Source of the DNA: Candidatus Micrarchaeota archaeon
GTDB lineage: Archaea; Micrarchaeota; Micrarchaeia; Micrarchaeales; CABMGC01
Assembly (NCBI GenBank): GCA_028866835.1
Contig: JAGWHJ010000001.1
Location: forward strand, 4,636 to 68,635
DNA length: 64,000 nt
Direction of reading: 5' to 3'
A program made the translations under genes and the position numbers. How positions within the stretch are numbered: position 1 is the first letter of the stretch; each line of letters opens with the position of its first letter. Below are positions 36,343 to 45,791 of this stretch, in pieces. The notes beneath the pieces were generated by a model. That model was given only the letters and a program-made list of their open reading frames with translations, searched no databases and had not been told where the DNA came from.

Positions 36343-39030
36343 TCAGCTCCATACCCCGTTGGCAAACTTTGCGGCGGAGATGGTAATCCCTCCGGTATTG
36401 CTGTTTGCGATGACCGAGTAGTAGTGGCTTTCAGTCTGGTTGCAGAGCGCGAGCGCAACATTGTCGCCGTATCCTGCGGGCGTGGAGAATGCGACATTGC
36501 AGCCCGAAGGCCAGGTTATGCTCTGGCATGCGGACCTGCCGCATGCGACCATGAGCGCAACGGCCTCAGGGTCGGGGCCGTAGTTTGTATTGTAAGTGAA
36601 GTTATACGGGCCCGAACTGCCGGAGGTGGCTCCAACCTGCCCCTCGTAGTTGATGGTGCCGCTGGAGGTGAGTGCGAAGCCGGCAACGCTCATGGCGCCC
36701 AGGCTTGCCTCGGTCATGTTGCATGACTGCGATCCGAAAGGCGCGCTCGCCTCGGAGACAGTGTATCCCGAACTTGATACGCTGTCCATCACGGGCCACT
36801 GGGAATTTATCGAATAGCCATTGGTAGAGCCCCAGCAGAATGTCCCAGGATATCCGCTTGCACTAACGGAGCATGAGGCGGATGTGGCGGACGATGGATT
36901 TGAGTAGCAGAAATGCGGGACAAGGATTGCGTAGCTGCCTGTCTGCTGCGCCGTTGTGGTTGGCGATGTCGTGGCCATGGAGGTGGTCTGGGACGTCGCA
37001 GGCACAGTCGTGCTCGGAGAGGTCGTGAAAACGCTCGTCGATGCCGTTGAAGGCGATGATGTGGTGCTCTGGATTGACGACGCGCTCCATACGCCGTTTG
37101 CGAACCTTGCGTCTGATACGGTAACTCCGCCTGGGCCCGAAAGGTACACGGTCACGTAGTAGGAGCTGCCCTCCGCCTGGTTGCAGAGCGCTAGATACGT
37201 GTTCTCATAGTTGTCCGAACCCGTATTGGACGAGACCATGCTGCATCCCTGCGGCAGAATTACCCTTGGGCAGCCGTACCATCCGCATGAGATCATGAGA
37301 GCTACCGCTTCTGAACCGCTGCCGGAATCGGTCGTGTAAGTGTAGGTGTAGCTCAAGACCTTGCTCGCGTTGCCACCGGATTCTCCGGTATATTGCACCT
37401 GGCCGCTTGATGATTGAACCGCTAGACCAGCAACCACGGTGTCAGCAGCCCCGGATACGCTGCATGCGGATGCGCCTTTGGATGCGAACGGGCGAGCAGT
37501 TTCGGATACGTCCGTGTAGCTTCCGCCGTTTGAACTTTCATCAATGGACCAGAATGGCGTATTCAGCGCTCCGTTTCCGGAGCCGGCCCAGCAGAATGTG
37601 CCCGATTGCCCGGAAGGGACGGAGCATGCTGCTGATGTTGTGCCTTTCGCGCTGCACGAGCTTGCTGTGTAGGTTTGCTCATTAGGAGGGACAGTGGTCG
37701 TGCCTGTAGTAGGAGCGGTTGTGGCCACCGTAGTGAAGCGGGTGGTGGTGTATATCGTGCTTGGATTGGTGGTGTAAACGGATGTTGCCACAGAGGTGCT
37801 TGAACCACACTGCGAGGTAGTGCCGTAGCAGTTCCGTGTTGTAGTGGAACCGCCGCCTGAGGAGATTGTTGTAGTAGGTATCGTGGAGTATATGGAGCTG
37901 GAATATACGGAGCTTGAGGCAGACGTATAAACGCTGGTAGTGTAAATGCTGCTGGTGTAGCAGTAGAAGCAGCTCGTGGTTGTTGAGCTTGTCGTCCGCA
38001 TGGACGTAGACACAGATGTCGGTACAGAGGTCGGGAAGCTTGTCGTTGATATGACAGATGTTGAAGTGGCCGGATTCACTATGTACACGACGGCACCGCC
38101 CACGCTGGTGTAGGGGCCTGGCGGCTGGCCTGAGCCGAACGCCTGCCAAGCCTCAGAAGGATACCAGTTCCCGTAGACGTAGCTGGGGCTGCTGGTGGTG
38201 TAAGGCGTCCATGCGTTGTTGTAGAAGTAGAAGCCGTAAGGCGGCGCCAGAGAAGCCTCGGATATCGAGTAGACCTCTTCGTAATCAGTGTAATCGTAGT
38301 AGCCGTAGTCGCTGTAGTTCAGGTACAGGAAGCCTCCGCCGGTTGGAGCGGTGTAGCTCCACACCAATGCCGAACCCTCGTATGCGAGGAACTGGACCTG
38401 CCCGTTGTTCGGTGCAATCATCTGGAAGGTGTAGGTGGCGCCAGGGGTAAGTACGGCTGCGATGGGCGAATAGTGGTATGTCAGGGCGTTCGGAGGCCCT
38501 GAAGTCCACGAGTAGACAAGCCCCCATTGGCCGTAAAAGTCAGAGAACCCGATCTGGTCATAGCTTCCTGCATTGTCCCATGCGGACATCAGGACGTAAT
38601 AGTAGTCGTCGGCCTGCGGTGCGGCGCCTGGAATCTGTATCGTTGTTGATACTCCCCTGGCCCATGCAGGCGCGGTGTCGACTGCACCAAGCCAGTAATG
38701 GGTTGAGACAACGGAGGCAGGCGAGGCAAAGTTATGAACGCATCCGGTATTGCTCAGCGCGGATTTAGGTTGCGCCGGAGGCGGGGCTTGGTGTCCGTTC
38801 ACTATCGGAATCCCGGTTGTCGAGTTCCAGTTCACTACGATAACGGTATTGCTAGGCGTGGTTATGGAAAGAGGATTCACGGAGGAGCATGAGGTGGCAA
38901 CCAATGGATTGTTCCCGAACTCTTTTGTTGCAGGCGGAGGAACCGACATGAAAAACGCAACGATTATGATGGCTGCCCCAAGAAAGACCAGGTTGTCGGC
39001 AATGCCGTGGATTGCCATTCTGCTTTTCAC
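36343..39030 (-). CDS. large secreted/anchored protein: signal anchor, G1 (eqolisin) peptidase-like beta-sandwich domain, Ser/Thr-rich stalk, two Cys-rich C-terminal domains
   Basis: N-terminal hydrophobic helix. Residues 100-320 carry HYWLGAV, VSTTIQIPG, MSAWDNAGSYDQIGF and DYEEVYS, which parallel the G1 motifs NWAGAV, FTVPS, AWVGIDG..QTG and AEWIVE. Residues 320-452 are almost purely S/T/Y/V. Two copies of a domain of about 190 aa each end in (R/K)FANGVWS. Confidence 0.6.
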   Translation of the reverse strand: MKSRMAIHGIADNLVFLGAAIIIVAFFMSVPPPATKEFGNNPLVATSCSSVNPLSITTPSNTVIVVNWNSTTGIPIVNGHQAPPPAQPKSALSNTGCVHNFASPASVVSTHYWLGAVDTAPAWARGVSTTIQIPGAAPQADDYYYVLMSAWDNAGSYDQIGFSDFYGQWGLVYSWTSGPPNALTYHYSPIAAVLTPGATYTFQMIAPNNGQVQFLAYEGSALVWSYTAPTGGGFLYLNYSDYGYYDYTDYEEVYSISEASLAPPYGFYFYNNAWTPYTTSSPSYVYGNWYPSEAWQAFGSGQPPGPYTSVGGAVVYIVNPATSTSVISTTSFPTSVPTSVSTSMRTTSSTTTSCFYCYTSSIYTTSVYTSASSSVYSSSIYSTIPTTTISSGGGSTTTRNCYGTTSQCGSSTSVATSVYTTNPSTIYTTTRFTTVATTAPTTGTTTVPPNEQTYTASSCSAKGTTSAACSVPSGQSGTFCWAGSGNGALNTPFWSIDESSNGGSYTDVSETARPFASKGASACSVSGAADTVVAGLAVQSSSGQVQYTGESGGNASKVLSYTYTYTTDSGSGSEAVALMISCGWYGCPRVILPQGCSMVSSNTGSDNYENTYLALCNQAEGSSYYVTVYLSGPGGVTVSDARFANGVWSASSIQSTTSSPSTASTSVFTTSPSTTVPATSQTTSMATTSPTTTAQQTGSYAILVPHFCYSNPSSATSASCSVSASGYPGTFCWGSTNGYSINSQWPVMDSVSSSGYTVSEASAPFGSQSCNMTEASLGAMSVAGFALTSSGTINYEGQVGATSGSSGPYNFTYNTNYGPDPEAVALMVACGRSACQSITWPSGCNVAFSTPAGYGDNVALALCNQTESHYYSVIANSNTGGITISAAKFANGVWS
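36346..37674 (-). repeat. tandem duplication of a 190-197 aa Cys-rich coding domain (37084..37674 and 36346..36915) separated by an S/T/P linker
   Basis: Aligned landmarks: SC/CSV..SG..GTFCW, EAVALM(I/V).CG, ALCNQ.E, (R/K)FANGVWS. Confidence 0.8.
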
Positions 39031-39152
39031 GACTTTATAGATGCTTGATAGGTTATTTAATTTTATCCATAAGGCTTAGCTCGGACCATATTGAACCTGC
39101 CCTCACTTTCGCAAGGTTCAAAAGTTTTGATGTTCAATATAGTGCGAGTAGC

Positions 39153-40346
39153 ATGCCTTCAGAACAAGCTAGTCCTCAGCAGGCTTCATCCGACCTTAGC
39201 GTGATCGAGAAGCTCAAGATGTTCAGGGGCCTTCTTGACCCCAATTACTTCAAGCAGTCGGTGCGGCCGATCATATTCAATAGGGCAAACGGCGATCCGG
39301 AGCGCGTCCATGAGCTTGTCCTTGACATACTGAAAAAGAATAATTTCGAGCTCTCGCTTGTTTCCGGGCTGTTCAATGCGCCTGAGGAGCTCAGGATAGA
39401 TGTGTACGGGAAGAGGCTGGTGCCTTTCGGCTCTGCGGCCGGACTGGACAAGACCGGCGACCCGCTCTTGCCCCTCTCGAACATCTTCGGCTTCCTTGAA
39501 CCTGGGACCATATGCGTCAACCCCAGGGAGGGAAATCCCAGGCCGAGGGTTGTCAACGACGACTCCAGCCTCGACCTGTACAACGCGCAGGGATTTCCAG
39601 GCAAGGGGCTTGATTATTTCCTGAACAACCTTAAGGACTACAAGATGAGGAAAGGGAAGGTGCCCGTCTACGTAAACATGTGCGGCATGCCCCTTTCGGA
39701 GCAGAATGCCATAGAGCTCGCGATGGAGGAGATGAGGACGCTGCTGAAGAGCCTGGAACCCTACTGCGACGGTTTTGTGTGGAACTGCGCGTCGCCCAAC
39801 ACGGAGGCGCTCAGGATGCTGCGGACGCCGGAGATATCGGAACAGACCTCTGCGCTAATGAAGGAGCTTGCGCCAGAGAAGCTTAGGCTCGTGAAGATAT
39901 GGCCTTACGAACCCGAGGAGAAGGAGGCCACGTTCAGGTTCATCGAGGGCTTCATGGACGGCGGAGGTCACGGGGTTGTGGCCATAAACACGAAGATATT
40001 TCCCAGGGAGCAGGTGCCGGCGCCGAACTGGGGATACAAGTCGGCGGGAAGGAGCGGCAAGTTCCTCAGGCCGTACCGCCTCAGGAGCGTGAAGGACATA
40101 AGATCCGCTTTTCCGGATTCCGTCATAGTGGCTGCCGGCGGAATTTTCGACGGCGATGACGCCTATGCCACGTTCAAGGCAGGCGCGAACATGCTTGAGG
40201 GCTACACGCCGTACACGTTCTACGGACTTGGCCTGCTGAAGCAGATCGAGAACGGCGTCGCGCAGAAACTTAGGTCTGATGGCTACAAGAGCCTTGCCGA
40301 CCTGCAGGCGAACGTCAGGGAAGGAGGTGCAAGGGCCGATGGGTAA
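39153..40346 (+). CDS. pyrD: dihydroorotate dehydrogenase, class 2-like
   Basis: GSAAGLDKTGDPL...FGFLEPGTICVNPREGNPRPRV...LYNAQGFPGKGLDYF matches G.AAG.DKn...GFgf.E.GtvTp.pQ.GNp.PR.fR...N..GF.N.G. The ATG at 39153 is preferred over the track start 39012, which overlaps the upstream gene. Confidence 0.8.
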   Translation: MPSEQASPQQASSDLSVIEKLKMFRGLLDPNYFKQSVRPIIFNRANGDPERVHELVLDILKKNNFELSLVSGLFNAPEELRIDVYGKRLVPFGSAAGLDKTGDPLLPLSNIFGFLEPGTICVNPREGNPRPRVVNDDSSLDLYNAQGFPGKGLDYFLNNLKDYKMRKGKVPVYVNMCGMPLSEQNAIELAMEEMRTLLKSLEPYCDGFVWNCASPNTEALRMLRTPEISEQTSALMKELAPEKLRLVKIWPYEPEEKEATFRFIEGFMDGGGHGVVAINTKIFPREQVPAPNWGYKSAGRSGKFLRPYRLRSVKDIRSAFPDSVIVAAGGIFDGDDAYATFKAGANMLEGYTPYTFYGLGLLKQIENGVAQKLRSDGYKSLADLQANVREGGARADG

Positions 40347-41298
40347 GCGCATAGACCCGCATGTCCATTGCCGCGACTGGGGTCAGTCTTACAAGGCGAC
40401 CATAAAATCCGTTACAGAGATAGCCCGCAGACAGGGCGTTGTTGCAATCATCGACATGCCCAACACGCAGCCCGCAATAACCTCTGAGGAGCTGGTAATG
40501 CGGAGGCTCAGCACCGCGGAATCTGAGGGATGCCTTGACGGCTATTACCTCTACGTCGGCGCGACCCGAAGCCCGGAACAGCTGAAGGAGGCGGTGAGGC
40601 TCGTGCGCGACAACCCGAAAGTTCTCGGCATAAAGATGTATGCTGGAAGATCGGTCGGCGACCTGGAGGTGCCGGACGAGGAAGGGCAGCGCGCGGTGTA
40701 CAGGGCCTTGGCTGGCGCGGGCTACACCGGGCCGGTCATGCTGCACTGCGAGAAGGAATCACTGTTCAGGATGGACCTGTGGGACCCCAAGCGGCCGCAC
40801 ACGTGGCTCATGGCAAGGCCGCCGGAGGCGGAGGTGGAATCGGTAAGGGACCAGATAAGGCTTGCAATAGATTCGGGATTGGAAGCGCACCTCCACATCT
40901 GCCACATCTCCGTGCCCGAAGCCGTAGAGCTGGTAAACGATGCAAGGAGGGAGCTTGACATAAGCTGCGGCGCAACTCCCCATCATCTCACGATGTCTAC
41001 CGATGACATGAAAACGCGGGATGGCATTACCTACAAGGTCAATCCCCCGCTAAGGGACCGGGAAACGGCTGCAGGGCTCATGGACCTCCTTAAGCACGGG
41101 AGGATAGACTGGATTGAGACGGACCACGCGCCGCACACAGAAGATGAGAAGGCCAGATCCTACCTGTCTGGGATACAGAGCCTCGGCACGTATTCGTCGT
41201 TCTTGGAGGGGCTGAGGGAGGACGGCTTTACCGATGCGCAGATAGAGAGGCTGACTTACTCAAACATAAAGAGGGTCTTCCCGAAGATAATCGAGTAG
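40339..41298 (+). CDS. pyrC: dihydroorotase (amidohydrolase superfamily)
   Basis: DPHVHCRD, MLHCE, HICHIS and ETDHAPHT metal-ligand motifs. AAGGAGGTG lies 9 nt upstream of the ATG at 40339. It overlaps the pyrD stop by 8 nt. Confidence 0.8.
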   Translation: MGKRIDPHVHCRDWGQSYKATIKSVTEIARRQGVVAIIDMPNTQPAITSEELVMRRLSTAESEGCLDGYYLYVGATRSPEQLKEAVRLVRDNPKVLGIKMYAGRSVGDLEVPDEEGQRAVYRALAGAGYTGPVMLHCEKESLFRMDLWDPKRPHTWLMARPPEAEVESVRDQIRLAIDSGLEAHLHICHISVPEAVELVNDARRELDISCGATPHHLTMSTDDMKTRDGITYKVNPPLRDRETAAGLMDLLKHGRIDWIETDHAPHTEDEKARSYLSGIQSLGTYSSFLEGLREDGFTDAQIERLTYSNIKRVFPKIIE

Positions 41299-41352: not shown

Positions 41353-42687
41353 ATGGTGAAAAAGCCCCAAAAAAAGAGAGATTCGGACCTGTTCTTCAGG
41401 ATCGGGATAATAGTCGGGGTGCTACTTGTATATCTTGTTGCGGGAAAGGTGGGGCTGTCTCTGGCGCTCATCAATTCCAGCGTGACGGCGATATGGCCAC
41501 CCACGGGCATCGCCCTTGCAGCGCTGCTGATCTTTGGCTTCAGGTACTGGCCGGTGATATATGCCGGCGCATTCATCGTCAATTTCAGCACGACTGGAGA
41601 CATCATGAGCTCGGTATTCATAGCCCTCGGGAATACGCTTGAGGCTTACGTGGCCGCGTTCCTGGTGAAGAGGTTTGCAAACGGCATCAGCGCATTTGAT
41701 ACATGGCAGAATACGGTGAAATTCGGCCTCTCGGCCGTACCAGCAGCAGTCGTCGCAGCGACGGTGGGAGTAACGACGTTACTGCTGTCCGGATTGACCA
41801 CGTACGTAGCATACGCCCTCACCTGGGTGACATGGTTCCTTGGCGACTTCACAGGTGCGGTGATATTCGCCCCTGCAATAATACTACTCTACAGGAACCC
41901 GTACTTCAATTACGGGGAAAAGCCTGGCGAAAAGCTCACGTTCATACTCCTGGTGATCGTCCTTCCCGCTTTGATATTCAATACATCAATAGTAGCATAC
42001 CATCCCGGGGCGTACCTTTGTCTGGTACTGATAGGCATAATAGGCATGAAGTACACGCCCAGGGAAACGGCGCTGGCGGGCATTGCAATAGCAATGACGG
42101 CCATCTTCTTCACGGCACATGGAGTAGGTCCATTCATCATCTCTGGCGGCCAAGCCAATACGGCCCTCTTGCTTCTCCAGCTCTTTGTGGCGATACTCAC
42201 GTTATTCGGGCTGGTGCTCGCCGCGCTGACAAAGTCGGAGGACAACCTGCGCAGGCAGCTTCTTGCAGAACGAAACTCGCTCGATCTCCAGGTGAGGTAC
42301 ATGGAGGCGGAGATGGGGCAGGACAAGAAGCACCACGGCGTAATTCTAGAGCCAACGAAGACCGGATTCCTCGATCTTGATCTGGAAAACCATACAAGCA
42401 TAAGAAATGCAAAACACGACCAGGTCTATGGGCATTACAGCATGCTGCCGAGCTGGAACATGGACATATTCTACGAGCACGTGCTCCCGCAGGACAGGAA
42501 GGTGGCGCACAAGGCCTATGCAGAGGCGTACAAGACAGGGAAGCTGAGCCTGGAGTGCAGGATAAAGTGGCCCGACAATTCGATACACTGGATAGAGATA
42601 AGGGGCCTCGTCTCTTTTGATGAGGACCACAAGCCGCTGAGGATACTGAGCAGGGTAATAGAGCTTGCGCGAACCCCTTCGAGATGA
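41353..42687 (+). CDS. membrane sensor protein: MASE1 domain + single C-terminal PAS domain, no output domain
   Basis: About 300 aa of TM helices with a MASE1-like start (AGKVGLSLALINSSVTAIWPPTGIALAALLIFG), then a PAS-like C-terminus (LECRIKWPDNSIHWIEIRG...KPLRILSRVIEL). Confidence 0.6.
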   Translation: MVKKPQKKRDSDLFFRIGIIVGVLLVYLVAGKVGLSLALINSSVTAIWPPTGIALAALLIFGFRYWPVIYAGAFIVNFSTTGDIMSSVFIALGNTLEAYVAAFLVKRFANGISAFDTWQNTVKFGLSAVPAAVVAATVGVTTLLLSGLTTYVAYALTWVTWFLGDFTGAVIFAPAIILLYRNPYFNYGEKPGEKLTFILLVIVLPALIFNTSIVAYHPGAYLCLVLIGIIGMKYTPRETALAGIAIAMTAIFFTAHGVGPFIISGGQANTALLLLQLFVAILTLFGLVLAALTKSEDNLRRQLLAERNSLDLQVRYMEAEMGQDKKHHGVILEPTKTGFLDLDLENHTSIRNAKHDQVYGHYSMLPSWNMDIFYEHVLPQDRKVAHKAYAEAYKTGKLSLECRIKWPDNSIHWIEIRGLVSFDEDHKPLRILSRVIELARTPSR

Positions 42688-43189: not shown

Positions 43190-44656
43190 ATGGCACAGAT
43201 CATAGACTATATCCGCGCTGTTGCAGCGATATGTGTAGTGCTGATTCTGGCAGCGATCTTCCTTCTTAATGGGATGCCCAGGACCGCAACTTCCACGAGC
43301 ACGGCCATTCCGAGCAGCAGCTCCACGGCGCATGCGACAACCACAACAGTATCGCGGACATCGCAGAACTGGGAGGGCATGTACAGCCTGCTGAGCAACA
43401 ATACGTTCAACCTCCAGAGCATCTTCAACCTCTCCCAGCCGCAGCAGAACCTCACCGCAATAGAATACTCCGGGAACATAAGCAACTACGGCGCGAGAGC
43501 GCCCTTCAACCTGAGCTACGGGCTTGGCGTGAACTTCAGCGTTCTGGAGCTCAGCACGCTGAACGCGTACCGCGGCCACGGGGAGAACATAACGTCTGCA
43601 TACGTAGACGGCGGATACTACCAGTGCGTAAGGGCCGATGACATAGCGAACGGCGGGCCGCAGGGGCTCGTGTGCTATCCCGAATCGCAGTCCGGGTTCA
43701 ACAGCGGCAGCCTGATGTCCGGACTGGGGGCTGGCCTGGCCGATGCAGAGCAGCTCAGAGGCACGACGCAGTCGCTCATACCTGCCGCCTTTGCGATGCT
43801 GCTGGTACACTCGCCGCAGACGGCGATAACGCTGCGCAACACCAGCATAAGGAATTCCAGCTTCAATGGCCTTCCGTGCAAGCTTGTCAGCAGCAACTAC
43901 TCCACGAATTATGACAACGACACCGGGGGGACGGAGATGAAGGGAAGGATAACCACCTGCATCTCGAAAAAATACAACGTGCCGCTGACCGCGCATTTCA
44001 CGATAAGAAACGTGAGCACGAACGGGGTGACGCGGAACGGCACAAGATACAATAACTACCAATTGCTTCAGTTCAGCATAAACGTCACGGAGAGGAGCCT
44101 GGGCACTGGCAGGGGCAAGCCTTACTCGCTGCCATCCAGGACCGCGTGCTTCGGGGTTGCCGAACTGCTTACATGCTACAATCCGGTGATAGGGACGAAC
44201 GGCGTGCTCGAGCTGAACCTCTCGATAAGCAACGTCTACACGATACAGAACTACTACAACGGGAGGTACAGCTACTACGAGGTCAATTACACGAACGTGA
44301 CGATAGCGTGCTCGACCCTGGACCAGTTTGCGGAGCTTGGGGACAGCAGCGATGTCAGGCAGTACGAATTCGCCAAGCTCGCTGCACTAATAATGCACAA
44401 CCAGACGGTCTCTGGAAGGGTGGCGATACAGTGCTACAACCAGACCGGTGCCCCGATAACAAGCCTCAAGCCAGGGGATCCGCAGTACTTCAACCTGTTC
44501 CTGAATTATACGGAGGAGAACGCCACGTCGCCGAATGCGCCGCTTGGAAACGGGCTGCCGGGACCACATGTCTTCACCGCCACGGGGATAGCAAGCGCAT
44601 ACGTCTCCAATTCCAGCATAGATGCGCCGCAGTTCAACCTCCGCCTGAACCGATGA
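43190..44656 (+). CDS. signal-anchored extracellular protein, N-glycosylation sequon-dense, hypothetical
   Basis: N-terminal hydrophobic helix AVAAICVVLILAAIFLL followed by many N-x-S/T motifs. The opposite-strand ORF 43085..44062 is Arg-rich shadow. Confidence 0.6.
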   Translation: MAQIIDYIRAVAAICVVLILAAIFLLNGMPRTATSTSTAIPSSSSTAHATTTTVSRTSQNWEGMYSLLSNNTFNLQSIFNLSQPQQNLTAIEYSGNISNYGARAPFNLSYGLGVNFSVLELSTLNAYRGHGENITSAYVDGGYYQCVRADDIANGGPQGLVCYPESQSGFNSGSLMSGLGAGLADAEQLRGTTQSLIPAAFAMLLVHSPQTAITLRNTSIRNSSFNGLPCKLVSSNYSTNYDNDTGGTEMKGRITTCISKKYNVPLTAHFTIRNVSTNGVTRNGTRYNNYQLLQFSINVTERSLGTGRGKPYSLPSRTACFGVAELLTCYNPVIGTNGVLELNLSISNVYTIQNYYNGRYSYYEVNYTNVTIACSTLDQFAELGDSSDVRQYEFAKLAALIMHNQTVSGRVAIQCYNQTGAPITSLKPGDPQYFNLFLNYTEENATSPNAPLGNGLPGPHVFTATGIASAYVSNSSIDAPQFNLRLNR

Positions 44657-44662
44657 ACAGGA

Positions 44663-45280
44663 TTATCGCTTCAATGTTATCAAAACCTGGTCCGGATCCA
44701 CGCCCTCGCCAACACCATAGCCTTTGATACGCCCTTTATCGACGAACTCGTCCAATCGTTTCCCCACTGAACCCTTTAAGAATTCGTTAATTGGCTCTGC
44801 CGCTATTCTTTGGACGGCTTCGTTCGCAAGTATGTCCTCTACTACCTTCCTTAAAATGGTGGTATAGACGCCGTTTCTCCTTGCGGAATGATCGACGTAT
44901 GCAGAAGTTATGTCTATCCTACTTCTGCCATAGGCCGTAGTTATGATGTAACCAAGAATCTGACCTGTTAAGGGATGAGTTGCAAAATAGTCGGCTGAGT
45001 TGGGTCCGTGATATAGCGGTTCATCTTCCTCCAGCTGCAGGCTGCACCTTGTGAATTCATCAAACTCACGGCGCTGGGCAGGGCTAAGGGCCTTGTAATC
45101 AATCCTTGTGACCTCTATCTCAAGCCCCGGTTCGTTTGAAGGACCAGCTCGCGCCTTCCCGATTACATCCAATGGATCCCTGATTCGCCTTGGCATTTTA
45201 ACCATAGAGATGGTGGACTTTTTGATATTTACGCATTTTGGCCCATTTGGCGGCTGTTCAAGAGCGCGCTTATCCCGCAT
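44663..45280 (-). CDS. hypothetical protein, possibly GNAT-like acetyltransferase fold
   Basis: LGYIITTAYGRSRIDITSAYVDHSARRNGVYTTILRKVV weakly resembles GNAT motif A. AT-richer region; the start is uncertain. Confidence 0.3.
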   Translation of the reverse strand: MRDKRALEQPPNGPKCVNIKKSTISMVKMPRRIRDPLDVIGKARAGPSNEPGLEIEVTRIDYKALSPAQRREFDEFTRCSLQLEEDEPLYHGPNSADYFATHPLTGQILGYIITTAYGRSRIDITSAYVDHSARRNGVYTTILRKVVEDILANEAVQRIAAEPINEFLKGSVGKRLDEFVDKGRIKGYGVGEGVDPDQVLITLKR

Positions 45281-45305
45281 TCTTATTAGGCTTCATCTTG
45301 ATAGG

Positions 45306-45791
45306 ATGGATATTATGCATGTTTCGAAGAGGACCATGGTACTGTTCTTGGTAACAGGCACTACGATAGTATTATCGATGCTACTTACGCTGATCGTAGT
45401 CTATACTGGTGCTTATGCGATATCAGAGATGATATTTGCAGTTTCTGGACTTCTTGTGAGCATTTATCTTGTGCTGTACCAGTATCTCAGGGTGCCTCTT
45501 GCATGCCCGAGGTCAGGACTTGTGGACTGCAGGAAGGTGCTGGACAGCAAATACTCCTTCCTTGCCAGGAACATAAGGACGTCGGTGCTCGGCCTGCTCT
45601 TCTTCCCTCTCATGATCGCAGCGGTGCTCATCGGCAACCATCCTTTGGTGGTACTTTTCAGCTTTGCTGGCCTGATCTACACTTTCGAAAGGATCTACAC
45701 ACAGTACAGGATAGGGAGCATCTGCCTGTACTGCACATTTACATACATAATGGTGGTATCAATGCTGATGACCGCACTGATATCGGCATAG
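45306..45791 (+). CDS. vitamin K epoxide reductase (VKOR) family membrane protein
   Basis: Loop cysteines CPRSGLVDC followed by KVLDSKYS, and the active-site CLYC in the last TM helix. The start is taken at the ATG at 45306; the track ORF starts at 45108, inside the opposite-strand gene. Confidence 0.65.
   Translation: MDIMHVSKRTMVLFLVTGTTIVLSMLLTLIVVYTGAYAISEMIFAVSGLLVSIYLVLYQYLRVPLACPRSGLVDCRKVLDSKYSFLARNIRTSVLGLLFFPLMIAAVLIGNHPLVVLFSFAGLIYTFERIYTQYRIGSICLYCTFTYIMVVSMLMTALISA

What the first reader, a model, noticed from the sequence alone, without database searches (positions are those of the whole stretch)
36343..39030. 895-aa surface protein: glutamic-peptidase(G1)-like domain, Ser/Thr stalk and two copies of an unrecognised Cys-rich domain
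Architecture read directly from the translation:
- a signal anchor;
- a domain of about 220 aa (38071..38733) whose landmarks HYWLGAV, VSTTIQIPG, SAWDNAGSYDQIGF and DYEEVYS parallel the G1/eqolisin landmarks, including candidate catalytic Gln (YDQIG) and Glu (YEEV);
- about 130 residues of almost pure S/T/Y/V, a likely O-glycosylated stalk;
- two diverged copies (37084..37674 and 36346..36915) of a 190-197 aa module with about 8 conserved Cys, each ending in (R/K)FANGVWS.

I do not recognise this module from any family. An acid-active protease tethered to duplicated Cys-rich binding modules would be an unusual extracellular effector.

The gene lies directly next to tRNA-Gln. A VKOR gene at 45306 could supply the disulfide chemistry.
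Basis: partly seen in the sequence, partly recalled or inferred. Interest (0 to 1): 0.6.

Follow-up and report, generated by a model that had tools for sequence, protein, structure and literature searches.

The report
Archaeal acid-protease-like enzyme with binding modules
A tiny symbiotic archaeon (Micrarchaeota) encodes an exported protein that joins an unannotated relative of the acid-active "glutamic" proteases to two copies of a cysteine-rich binding module so far named only in DPANN archaea, which makes it a plausible tool for feeding on or attaching to other cells.

Summary
ORF 36343..39030(-) encodes 895 aa, identical to the public hypothetical protein MDE1860130.1 of a Candidatus Micrarchaeota MAG.

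- **Order of parts:** N-terminal hydrophobic segment, a ~210-aa all-beta domain, a 132-aa Ser/Thr-rich region, then two 190-197-aa modules with 8 Cys each (44% identical, E 2e-36) separated by a second Ser/Thr linker.
- **N-domain:** No Pfam, NCBIfam or PDB sequence match. It defines a family of more than 50 proteins in Thermoplasmata, Bathyarchaeia and Micrarchaeota. Gln159 and Glu252 are invariant in this family.
- **N-domain fold:** The AlphaFold model (pLDDT 88.6) has glutamic peptidases as its 16 best PDB matches: YncM/CPAVM1, scytalidoglutamic peptidase, neprosin and HC7.
- **What is not shown:** Profile comparison with G1 is not significant, and I could not check the dyad geometry. The call is therefore a glutamic-peptidase fold, not a G1 member, with catalysis unproven.
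- **Cys-rich module:** It is a real, rare family (20 cluster representatives among 1.84 billion). Every member that carries a taxon name is DPANN (Micrarchaeota, Nanoarchaeota, Nanobdella MJ1_0774 and MJ1_0776).
- **Module fold:** The model (pLDDT 90.7) matches no solved structure. It resembles jelly-roll domains of phage minor tail proteins.
- **Ser/Thr region:** It links the enzyme to the modules. It is not a stalk off the membrane.

Verdict: a new variant of a known kind, moderately interesting.

The parts
36343..39030 (-). Whole gene: 895 codons plus stop, GTG start
   Evidence: ORF list. The translation is identical to public protein MDE1860130.1.
38941..38991 (-). N-terminal hydrophobic segment, residues 14-30 (LVFLGAAIIIVAFFMSV), preceded by K2 and R4. 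It is an export signal or signal anchor; cleavage is not determined.
   Evidence: It is the only 19-residue window with Kyte-Doolittle hydropathy above 1.6. Relatives also start with hydrophobic signal-like segments.
38770..38835 (-). Semi-conserved segment before the domain, residues 66-87 (VNWNSTTGIPIVNGHQAPPPAQ). The family motif is W-x-x-G-x-x-P-x-V-N-G-[KRH]-x-x-P-P-P. It is a candidate prosegment (inference only).
   Evidence: Column counts over 57 family sequences: W 22/42, G 32/42, P 26/33, G 24/37, PPP 28-36/46. This segment was not included in the structure model.
38071..38709 (-). All-beta domain with a glutamic-peptidase-like fold, residues 108-320
   Evidence: 31 relatives with E 7e-40 to 2e-11. 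AlphaFold2 pLDDT 88.6, pTM 0.85, 15 strands. Foldseek PDB ranks 1-16 are all glutamic peptidases, E 6.5e-7 to 2.8e-4, TM about 0.5.
38554..38556 (-). Codon of Gln159 (YDQIG), the candidate counterpart of the catalytic Gln53 of scytalidoglutamic peptidase
   Evidence: Q in 53/53 family sequences. It aligns to Q53 in the forced, non-significant hhalign. Codon checked.
38275..38277 (-). Codon of Glu252 (YTDYEE), the candidate catalytic Glu
   Evidence: E in 56/56 family sequences. The neighbour E251 is 54/56 (Q in paralogue P0032, V in P0004). Equivalence to G1 Glu136 is not shown. Codon checked.
37675..38070 (-). Ser/Thr-rich linker 1, residues 321-452, with 4 Cys. Probably glycosylated (inference).
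   Evidence: Composition T 32%, S 23%. Only two short, low-scoring 15-nt tandem repeats in the DNA (TRF scores 48 and 43, 2.1 copies each).
37084..37674 (-). Cys-rich module copy 1, residues 453-649, 8 Cys
   Evidence: Internal repeat E 2e-36. Family found by exhaustive HMMER search. Alignment A3.
36916..37083 (-). Ser/Thr-rich linker 2, residues 650-705
   Evidence: Composition T 30%, S 25%.
36346..36915 (-). Cys-rich module copy 2, residues 706-895, 8 Cys, at the C-terminus of the protein
   Evidence: AlphaFold2 pLDDT 90.7, pTM 0.90, all-beta. No PDB match with E < 1e-3. BFVD matches to phage minor tail proteins, E 5.6e-5 and weaker, TM up to 0.66.
45108..45791 (+). VKOR-family gene on the same contig. 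It is context only: a possible source of disulfide-forming capacity for exported Cys-rich proteins.
   Evidence: Pfam PF07884, E 9.2e-16, above the curated cut-off. The loop Cys pair and CLYC are present in the sequence. No evidence of a functional link to the gene.

Best explanation
The gene encodes an exported, acid-adapted, modular hydrolase of a Micrarchaeota (DPANN) archaeon.

**Export (inferred).** Export goes through the N-terminal hydrophobic segment.

**Catalytic domain.** Residues ~108-320 fold into the two-sheet beta-sandwich of the glutamic peptidases. This is shown at the level of a confident model and fold search. The domain most likely works as an endopeptidase at low pH. By analogy with scytalidoglutamic peptidase Gln53/Glu136, an invariant carboxylate (best candidate Glu252) would activate the hydrolytic water. 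The invariant Gln159 amide would polarise the scissile carbonyl and stabilise the tetrahedral intermediate. This step is inferred. Invariant D152, D158 and near-invariant D249 and E251 line the same two sequence stretches.

**Possible prosegment (speculative).** The semi-conserved segment before the domain may be removed on activation.

**Linkers and modules.** Two Ser/Thr-rich, probably glycosylated linkers connect the enzyme to two copies of a jelly-roll module. Each module probably carries four disulfides (inferred from 8 conserved Cys that are lost in pairs). The module resembles receptor-binding domains of phage tail proteins in fold. Its relatives sit on other surface proteins; those that carry a taxon name are DPANN. 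The modules most likely hold the enzyme on a target surface: the host cell envelope, the organism's own S-layer, or polymeric substrate.

**Purpose (inferred).** The likely purpose is to scavenge peptides or to remodel the contact site with a host.
For: - **Fold:** The model has pLDDT 88.6 and pTM 0.85. Foldseek PDB ranks 1-16 belong to four separately named sets of glutamic-class peptidase or peptidase-like entries: YncM 4hfs and CPAVM1 8xai, SGP 2ifr/2ifw/1s2b, neprosin 7zvc/7zva, and the di-glutamate mucinase HC7 8pn5. E-values run from 6.5e-7 to 2.8e-4. Lectins and GH16 enzymes follow at E >= 6e-4 (HC7 identity from PMC13003899).
- **Invariant residues:** Q159 53/53, E252 56/56, D152 53/53, S156 52/52, Y157 53/53, G161 53/53, Y250 56/56.
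- **Collinear landmarks with SGP** (sequence verified 100% against 1s2b_A): HWYAG~NWGGA, IxVP~NVP, SAW~AAW, DQIG~LQTG, GxxY~GDSI. Spacings are similar: W113-P134 is 21 residues against W6-P26 20; Q159-E252 is 93 against Q53-E136 83 (sequence).
- **Position in the protein:** In all 23 genome loci the match lies near the N-terminal end of a multidomain ORF. It is followed by PQQ-type propellers, LamG, PKD, Ig-like or dockerin domains, as in secreted enzymes.
- **Habitat:** MAG and isolate names of relatives include SPRUCE, AcS5/SubAcS15 and Candidatus Lutacidiplasmatales, which I take from my own knowledge, not from a tool, to be peat and acid-soil material.
- **Composition:** The protein has very few charged residues. 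The N-domain has 0 Lys and 1 Arg, pI about 4.
- **Physiology:** Micrarchaeota lack most amino-acid biosynthesis and are thought to rely on extracellular peptidases (PMC5864196).
- **Modules:** Model pLDDT 90.7. BFVD matches are to phage minor tail and CenC-like carbohydrate-binding proteins. Homologues are the only extracellular domain of small membrane-anchored proteins such as P0035. They also occur in Nanobdella surface proteins MJ1_0774 and MJ1_0776.
- **Disulfides:** Cys columns 1+2 are lost together in 6 sequences and 5+6 together in 1. A VKOR gene lies on the contig.
Against: - No sequence-based method links the domain to any peptidase family. There is no Pfam or NCBIfam hit. hhalign probabilities are 0.15-0.34%. 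The same comparison also fails for YncM against G1 (0.65%), so this test has little power.
- TM-scores to the peptidases (0.44-0.52 on the query) are only slightly above those to GH16 glucanases (0.45-0.48).
- The forced alignment pairs SGP EDFEE with TDYEE. That places Thr248 opposite catalytic Glu136 and E252 four residues further on.
- I could not inspect the model coordinates, so the proximity of Q159 and E252 is untested.
- No activity data exist for any family member.
- The ligand of the modules is unknown.
- It is not known whether the N-terminal segment is cleaved.
Confidence: 0.55

Rival explanations
1. The N-domain is a non-catalytic concanavalin-like or lectin-type binding domain. 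The whole protein is then an adhesin made of three binding units on glycosylated linkers.
For: - The fold class is shared with lectins, galectins, LamG and neurexin domains. These appear from rank 20 onward in the fold search.
- There is no sequence link to a peptidase.
- The top structural match, YncM, is itself deposited as an uncharacterised protein.
- A lectin-like surface protein has been proposed to take part in DPANN host recognition and attachment (bioRxiv 10.1101/2023.10.27.564410).
Against: - The invariant set is a dense cluster of carboxylates plus one Gln (D152, D158, Q159, D249, E251, E252). That pattern is more typical of an acid hydrolase site than of a sugar-binding site.
- The best 16 structural matches are glutamic-class peptidase entries or their close homologues, not lectins.
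- In relatives the domain always comes first and is followed by recognised binding domains such as LamG, PKD, Ig-like and dockerin. That is the layout of an enzyme with binding appendages.
Confidence: 0.2
2. The N-domain is a glycoside hydrolase or other carbohydrate-active enzyme of the beta-jelly-roll clan (GH16/GH12-like). The C-terminal modules would then be its carbohydrate-binding modules, aimed at glycosylated cell envelopes.
For: - GH16 1,3-1,4-beta-glucanases (1cpm, 1zm1) and a putative sugar hydrolase (4qhw) match with TM 0.45-0.49, close to the peptidase values.
- Several invariant carboxylates are available.
- The layout of catalytic domain, Ser/Thr linker and binding module is classic for glycanases (established knowledge).
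- A module relative sits on a pectin-lyase-like protein in Nanobdella.
Against: - The GH16 signature E-x-D-x-(x)-E on one strand is absent. The corresponding stretch is Y-T-D-Y-E-E, with Tyr at the nucleophile position, and E251 is not invariant.
- The invariant Gln and Glu lie at 24% and 68% of the domain length, as in G1 (26% and 66%). They are not mid-domain as in GH16 (my estimate from memory that the GH16 motif lies near mid-domain; not tested here).
- E-values to GH16 are 100 to 1000 times weaker than to the peptidases.
- No Pfam family (glycoside hydrolases included) matched at the thresholds used.
Confidence: 0.12
3. The protein is mainly a structural envelope component (S-layer-associated or filament-associated). 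The N-domain has lost any activity, and the modules mediate self-assembly.
For: - Module-bearing relatives P0036 and P0041 start with pilin-like class III signal sequences (QxSxEFL type; sequence).
- The Nanobdella module genes lie next to archaellin-like genes MJ1_0772 and MJ1_0773.
- Heavy Ser/Thr content is common in envelope proteins.
Against: - Strict invariance of polar residues across phyla argues for a chemical function.
- There is no C-terminal anchor and no lattice-forming Ig-like repeats.
- The module is rare, not a universal envelope element.
Confidence: 0.08

Closest known systems
Peptidase family G1 (eqolisins): scytalidoglutamic peptidase (PDB 1S2B/2IFW) and aspergilloglutamic peptidase; Pfam PF01828
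   Same: - Two-sheet antiparallel beta-sandwich of about 200 residues.
- Secreted, placed after a signal and a pre-segment.
- An invariant Gln followed by x-G-[FV], and an invariant Glu about 90 residues later, at the same relative positions.
- Collinear counterparts of most of the conserved G1 segments.
- Occurrence in acid habitats.
   Different: - No significant sequence or profile similarity.
- The W-to-Q spacing is shorter (8 residues against 14).
- An insertion of roughly 11 residues precedes the Glu strand.
- Extra invariant Asp and Glu residues.
- Catalytic equivalence of E252 is not shown.
- Fused to long linkers and binding modules, whereas G1 enzymes are single-domain.
Bacillus YncM (PDB 4HFS) and protease CPAVM1 (PDB 8XAI)
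   Same: Best structural match (E 6.5e-7). These are prokaryotic secreted or lipoprotein beta-sandwich proteins of similar size.
   Different: No sequence similarity (hhalign probability 0.2%). The YDQIG and YTDYEE motifs are not present in them (sequences).
Neprosin (MEROPS G3, PDB 7ZVA/7ZVC) and the di-glutamate mucinase HC7 (PDB 8PN5)
   Same: Same sandwich fold (E 3e-5 to 3e-4). Both are acid-active or glycoprotein-directed endopeptidases. Neprosin is made as a zymogen with a pro-domain (PMC9343461 abstract). HC7 uses an attached carbohydrate-binding module to tune its activity (PMC13003899).
   Different: Those enzymes use a Glu/Glu dyad. Here the first position is an invariant Gln. No sequence similarity was found.
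Thermopsin (family A5), the acid protease family restricted to archaea
   Same: Extracellular, from acidophilic archaea, often in several paralogues. Thermopsin-like proteins were proposed to degrade host S-layer proteins in the DPANN archaeon Nanobdella.
   Different: No Pfam hit of any kind, Thermopsin (PF05317) included. Thermopsin motifs (QDV, DNVWN, YDKITI, DAELV, DTG; PMC3842238) are absent.
Jelly-roll distal domains of phage minor tail proteins and CenC-like carbohydrate-binding modules (BFVD models). Homologous N-terminal regions of Nanobdella aerobiophila MJ1_0774 and MJ1_0776.
   Same: - The C-terminal module shares the fold with the phage domains (E 5.6e-5 to 1e-3, TM on query 0.45-0.66).
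- It is a true sequence homologue of the Nanobdella regions (E 5e-11 and 1.5e-10 with a two-sequence profile).
- Its terminal position on surface proteins matches a recognition role.
   Different: - No sequence similarity to any phage family (PHROGs).
- The module was not found in IMG/VR viral contigs.
- It has eight conserved Cys, and I saw no comparable Cys pattern described for the phage domains.
- No solved structure matches (best PDB TM 0.35).

Membership tests
Peptidase family G1 (eqolisin, Pfam PF01828) | Statistically significant sequence similarity to the type peptidase or family profile | tested here: not met
   No PF01828 hit at E <= 10 for the window domain or any of the 31 relatives in alignment A1. 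hhalign of the family profile against SGP gives probability 0.15%. Against a 120-sequence G1 profile it gives probability 0.34%, E 0.18.
Peptidase family G1 (eqolisin, Pfam PF01828) | Beta-sandwich of two antiparallel sheets as in SGP and AGP | tested here: met
   Model with pLDDT 88.6, 15 strands and no helices. Foldseek hits 2ifr, 2ifw and 1s2b at E 3e-6 to 2.6e-5, probability 1.00, TM 0.47-0.56.
Peptidase family G1 (eqolisin, Pfam PF01828) | Strictly conserved Gln/Glu catalytic dyad at equivalent positions and within bonding distance of one water | tested here: inconclusive
   Q159 and E252 are invariant and collinear with Q53 and E136. Q159 aligns to Q53, but E136 aligns to T248 in the non-significant forced alignment.
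Peptidase family G1 (eqolisin, Pfam PF01828) | Acidic pH optimum, pepstatin insensitivity, autocatalytic removal of an N-terminal propeptide | not testable with these tools
   There are only indirect hints: an acid-type composition, relatives from MAGs whose names suggest acid or peat habitats, and a semi-conserved pre-domain segment.
Glutamic peptidases with a Glu/Glu dyad (neprosin G3, HC7) | Two catalytic glutamates | tested here: not met
   The first dyad position is Gln in 53/53 sequences. The fold is shared.
Glycoside hydrolase family 16 | E-x-D-x-(x)-E catalytic motif on one strand | tested here: not met
   The only acidic strand reads Y-T-D-Y-E-E, with Tyr at the nucleophile position and E251 variable. 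No Pfam family of any kind matched the protein or its relatives in this domain.
Thermopsin (A5, Pfam PF05317) | Match to the family profile and its conserved motifs | tested here: not met
   No hit. The motifs listed in PMC3842238 are absent from the sequence.
Known carbohydrate-binding, adhesin or phage receptor-binding families (for the Cys-rich module) | Match to a curated sequence family or to a solved structure | tested here: not met
   Pfam, NCBIfam and PHROGs give no real hit. PDB Foldseek gives nothing with E < 1e-3. There is only fold-level similarity to unsolved phage minor tail protein models.
VKOR (Pfam PF07884), neighbouring gene | Profile match above the curated cut-off, loop Cys pair and CxxC | tested here: met
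   58.6 bits against a cut-off of 27.5. ACPRSGLVDC and CLYC are present in the sequence.

The most novel reading that the evidence does not exclude
The N-domain would found a new family of glutamic peptidases. This would be a new MEROPS G family, invisible to current profiles and, in the data searched, seen only in archaea whose MAG names point to acidic habitats. In DPANN symbionts it has been joined to a recognition module seen so far only in named DPANN proteins, which shares the fold of phage receptor-binding domains. Together with the pectin-lyase-like Nanobdella proteins that carry the same module, this would define a phage-tailspike-like toolkit of recognition module plus depolymerase. 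Ectosymbiotic archaea would use it to grip and locally digest the envelope of their hosts.
Probability: 0.25. Interest if true: 0.75.

Novelty: new variant of a known kind. Interest (0 to 1): 0.55.

Why it matters
- **Possible gap in annotation:** Acid-active proteases of archaea are poorly known. Thermopsin still has no established mechanism, and only a handful of archaeal G1 homologues are recorded (PMC3842238, PMC3009609). A family of more than 50 exported proteins with the glutamic-peptidase fold and an invariant Gln/Glu pair is missed by Pfam and NCBIfam. If the family is active, surveys that rely on such profiles would miss it in peat, acid-soil and mine-drainage metagenomes.
- **DPANN host contact:** How DPANN cells recognise and open up their hosts is an open question. 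A rare, disulfide-rich module that recurs on several DPANN surface proteins gives a concrete candidate to test. It includes two proteins in the cultivated Nanobdella system and is here coupled to a probable hydrolase.
- **Limits:** The finding rests on models and alignments only, so its weight depends on simple follow-up biochemistry.

Tried and rejected
- **Whole-protein scans:** Pfam, NCBIfam and PDB sequence scans gave only noise. A PDB search with the family profile also gave only noise.
- **hhalign of the family profile:** Against SGP alone, a 120-sequence fungal G1 profile and YncM+CPAVM1, all non-significant. YncM against G1 is equally non-significant, so this route cannot decide homology within this fold.
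- **Word-indexed homologue search with module 1:** No hit. The exhaustive HMMER search was needed.
- **Module in other collections:** IMG/VR viral contigs gave none. JGI metagenome contigs gave one failed call, one empty scan (83) and one scan with a single locus, which is P0035 next to uvrABC. PHROGs gave none.
- **Exact look-up of encoding contigs:** The window protein and paralogue P0032 are not on record.
- **DNA-level checks:** Tandem-repeat and promoter/terminator scans of the gene found nothing informative.
- **Readings rejected:**
  - Thermopsin relationship: no profile hit and no shared motifs.
  - GH16 motif: absent.
  - DUF2180 and zinc-ribbon-like Pfam hits on the CGxxC stretch: below or near threshold, with no matched stretch passing on its own.
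  - Functional meaning of the adjacent tRNA-Gln: none evident.
- **Literature:** Searches found no description of either family.

Full report
**Observation**

The ORF at 36343..39030 on the minus strand encodes 895 residues from a GTG start. Its product is identical to a public entry, MDE1860130.1 (KGH72_00245), a hypothetical protein from a Candidatus Micrarchaeota MAG. The window therefore comes from a DPANN archaeon.

There is a single hydrophobic segment at residues 14-30 and no C-terminal anchor. Residues 321-452 are 55% Ser+Thr. A second linker at 650-705 has the same character. The two C-terminal modules (453-649 and 706-895) are 44% identical, E 2e-36. Each has eight Cys in the same alignment columns. 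tRNA-Gln lies 42 nt beyond the stop on the other strand. The gene at 45108..45791 is a bona fide VKOR homologue.

**The N-terminal domain: family and conservation**

The whole protein has no Pfam, NCBIfam or PDB sequence match. A search of 5.8 billion proteins with residues 42-319 found 31 relatives (E 7e-40 to 2e-11). All are unnamed, and one is labelled Thermoplasmata. A scan of species-representative genomes found 23 loci. They are in Thermoplasmata (including Candidatus Lutacidiplasmatales and MAGs named AcS5/SubAcS15), Bathyarchaeia MAGs named SPRUCE, and unclassified Euryarchaeota and Methanobacteriota MAGs. I read those names as acid-soil and peat material from my own knowledge; the tools did not state habitats. 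A 2109-aa paralogue, P0032, is in the same Micrarchaeota MAG. Its N-domain is 46% identical, E 1.6e-60.

In every genome locus the match lies near the N-terminal end of the ORF. It is followed by assorted domains: PQQ-type beta-propellers, LamG, PKD, Ig-like and a dockerin.

Over 53-56 aligned sequences the invariant residues are:
- G115, P134, Y144, D152, S156, Y157, Q159, G161
- Y200, Y250, E252, P263, F269

T248, D249, E251 and D158 are nearly invariant.

**The N-terminal domain: fold**

An AlphaFold2 model built on this alignment is confident (pLDDT 88.6, pTM 0.85) and all-beta with 15 strands. Foldseek against the PDB returns glutamic-class peptidases or their close homologues at ranks 1-16:

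| Match | PDB entries | E-value |
|---|---|---|
| YncM and protease CPAVM1 | 4hfs, 8xai | 6.5e-7 to 1.9e-5 |
| Scytalidoglutamic peptidase | 2ifr, 2ifw, 1s2b | 3e-6 to 2.6e-5 |
| Neprosin | 7zvc, 7zva, 9qr8, 7zu8 | about 3e-5 to 8e-5 |
| HC7 mucinase | 8pn5 | about 1e-4 to 2.8e-4 |

HC7 is described as a di-glutamate mucinase (PMC13003899). Sugar hydrolases, GH16 glucanases and lectins follow with weaker E-values. Their TM-scores are only slightly lower (0.45-0.49 against 0.44-0.52).

**Is it a G1 peptidase?**

I checked my recollection of the SGP and YncM sequences against the PDB. SGP was 100% identical and YncM differed at 2 residues. I then ran profile comparisons:

| Comparison | hhalign probability |
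|---|---|
| Family profile vs SGP | 0.15% |
| Family profile vs a 120-sequence G1 profile | 0.34% (E 0.18) |
| Family profile vs YncM/CPAVM1 | 0.2% |
| YncM vs G1 | 0.65% |

None of the 32 rows of alignment A1 touches Pfam PF01828. The last comparison shows that sequence methods do not connect known members of this fold either.

The forced alignment is nevertheless collinear over most of the conserved G1 segments:
- HWYAG with NWGGA
- IxVP with NVP
- SAW with AAW
- YDQIG with ILQTG, placing Q159 on the catalytic Gln53
- G197 with G86

In that alignment the acidic strand TDYEE pairs with EDFEE. This places Thr248, not Glu252, opposite catalytic Glu136. The tools did not expose model coordinates, so I could not measure whether Q159 faces E252 or another invariant carboxylate.

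My conclusion has three parts. The fold of the glutamic peptidases is shown. A G1-type Gln plus Glu pair is conserved and plausibly placed. Membership of family G1 is not met by the sequence criterion, and catalysis is inferred, not shown.

Two other readings can be set aside. The GH16 motif E-x-D-x-E is absent, because the stretch reads Y-T-D-Y-E-E. Thermopsin motifs and its profile are also absent.

**Pre-domain segment**

About half of the family, including this protein and its paralogue, share a motif between the signal segment and the domain. The motif is W-x-x-G-x-x-P-x-V-N-G-[KRH]-x-x-P-P-P. G1 enzymes are described as made with prosegments removed at acid pH (PMC3009609), and neprosin is a zymogen (PMC9343461 abstract). 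This segment is therefore a candidate prosegment. That is speculation.

**The Cys-rich module: distribution**

A word-indexed search found nothing. An exhaustive HMMER scan of 1.84 billion cluster representatives with the two-copy profile found 20 proteins, 13 of them with E <= 1e-10. Members that carry a name are from the following sources:
- Micrarchaeota MAGs (KGH62, KGH64, KGH67, KGH72)
- a Nanoarchaeota MAG
- the cultivated nanoarchaeon Nanobdella aerobiophila (MJ1_0774 and MJ1_0776)

The other representatives come from unnamed metagenome sequences, so a DPANN-only distribution is not established.

MJ1_0776 has been described as a pectin-lyase-like extracellular protein possibly acting on the host envelope. 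MJ1_0772 and MJ1_0773 beside it are archaellin-like (bioRxiv 10.1101/2023.10.27.564410).

The module occurs in several settings:
- once on small membrane-anchored proteins (P0035, P0039)
- six times in paralogue P0032
- after pilin-like class III signal sequences (P0036, P0041)
- next to beta-propellers (P0037)

None of the Thermoplasmata or Bathyarchaeia relatives of the N-domain carries it. It was not found in IMG/VR viral contigs. It was found only once in JGI metagenome contigs.

**The Cys-rich module: structure and likely role**

Six Cys are invariant or nearly so. Cys 1+2 are absent together in six distant members, and Cys 5+6 are absent together in one. This pattern argues for disulfide pairs.

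The AlphaFold2 model is confident (pLDDT 90.7, pTM 0.90) and all-beta. It matches no solved structure: the best E is 5e-3 and the best TM is 0.35. Against predicted viral structures it matches domains of actinophage minor tail proteins and a CenC-like carbohydrate-binding protein. E-values start at 5.6e-5 and TM on the query reaches 0.66. There are no PHROG or Pfam hits.

The module is thus a new sequence family with a jelly-roll fold of the kind used for receptor or carbohydrate binding. A binding role is inferred from fold and position only.

**Architecture and mechanism**

The order of parts is hydrophobic segment, pre-segment, enzyme-like domain, Ser/Thr linker, module, Ser/Thr linker, module. 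The Ser/Thr region therefore does not lift the protein off the membrane. It tethers the enzyme to its binding modules, as in secreted glycanases and some peptidases.

The protein is very poor in charged residues. It has 16 Lys+Arg and 37 Asp+Glu in 895 residues, and the N-domain has no Lys. That fits exposure to acid.

Micrarchaeota lack most amino-acid biosynthesis and are thought to depend on extracellular peptidases and on hosts (PMC5864196). The best reading (confidence about 0.55) is an exported, acid-active glutamic-type endopeptidase. Two disulfide-stabilised recognition modules would hold it on a target surface, for peptide scavenging or for local digestion of a partner's envelope.

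The rivals are a non-catalytic lectin-like domain (0.2), a glycanase (0.12) and a structural envelope protein (0.08).

**Novelty**

Neither domain is in the curated libraries or in the literature I could search. The kind of thing, a glutamic-peptidase fold with appended binding modules, is known. The sequence families and their combination in a DPANN archaeon are new. I rate it a new variant of a known kind, with interest 0.55.

Noticed in passing
window 45108-45791 (+): VKOR-family membrane protein with both Cys pairs, in a small DPANN genome. It suggests that extracytoplasmic disulfide formation matters to this organism. No partner thioredoxin-like gene was looked for.
   Followed up: partly
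window 43190-44656 (+): 488-aa ORF with an N-terminal hydrophobic segment, a Ser/Thr stretch and 22 N-x-S/T sequons. It has no Pfam hit and is probably another glycosylated surface protein of unknown family.
   Followed up: partly
window 41353-42687 (+): MASE1 membrane sensor domain fused to a PAS domain (Pfam E 2.4e-41 and 2.5e-10).
   Followed up: no
P0032 residues ~544-787 and ~1421-1674; P0036 residues ~478-715: The 2109-aa paralogue from the same MAG carries a second repeated domain of about 245 aa. The two copies are 44% identical (E 1e-67). It is also present at the C-terminus of P0036 (E 2e-50) and has no Pfam match.
   Followed up: partly
P0036 and P0041 N-termini; Nanobdella MJ1_0772-0776: Two module-bearing proteins begin with pilin-like class III signal sequences (…QPAIEYV…, …QQSSIEFL…). 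The Nanobdella module genes sit beside archaellin-like genes. The module may be displayed on or near type IV filaments.
   Followed up: no
window 39012-39030: The listed TTG start of the divergent dihydroorotate dehydrogenase ORF (39012..40346) overlaps the 5' end of the gene by 19 nt. The Pfam match starts only at residue 138, so the true start is probably further downstream. An A/T-rich TATA-like stretch (TAAAATTAAATAA) lies about 25-35 nt upstream of the GTG (sequence).
   Followed up: no
window 39012-41298: Pyrimidine biosynthesis genes (dihydroorotate dehydrogenase by Pfam; a dihydroorotase-like ORF by my reading of the translation) are present. Published Micrarchaeota are reported to lack de novo nucleotide synthesis (PMC5864196). 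This MAG may belong to a less reduced lineage.
   Followed up: no
L010 and L011 (same MAG, SMAG_U15158): Two paralogues of the N-domain family occur in one Thermoplasmata MAG, as in the Micrarchaeota MAG. I recall that secreted acid proteases such as thermopsin are also often multi-copy.
   Followed up: no
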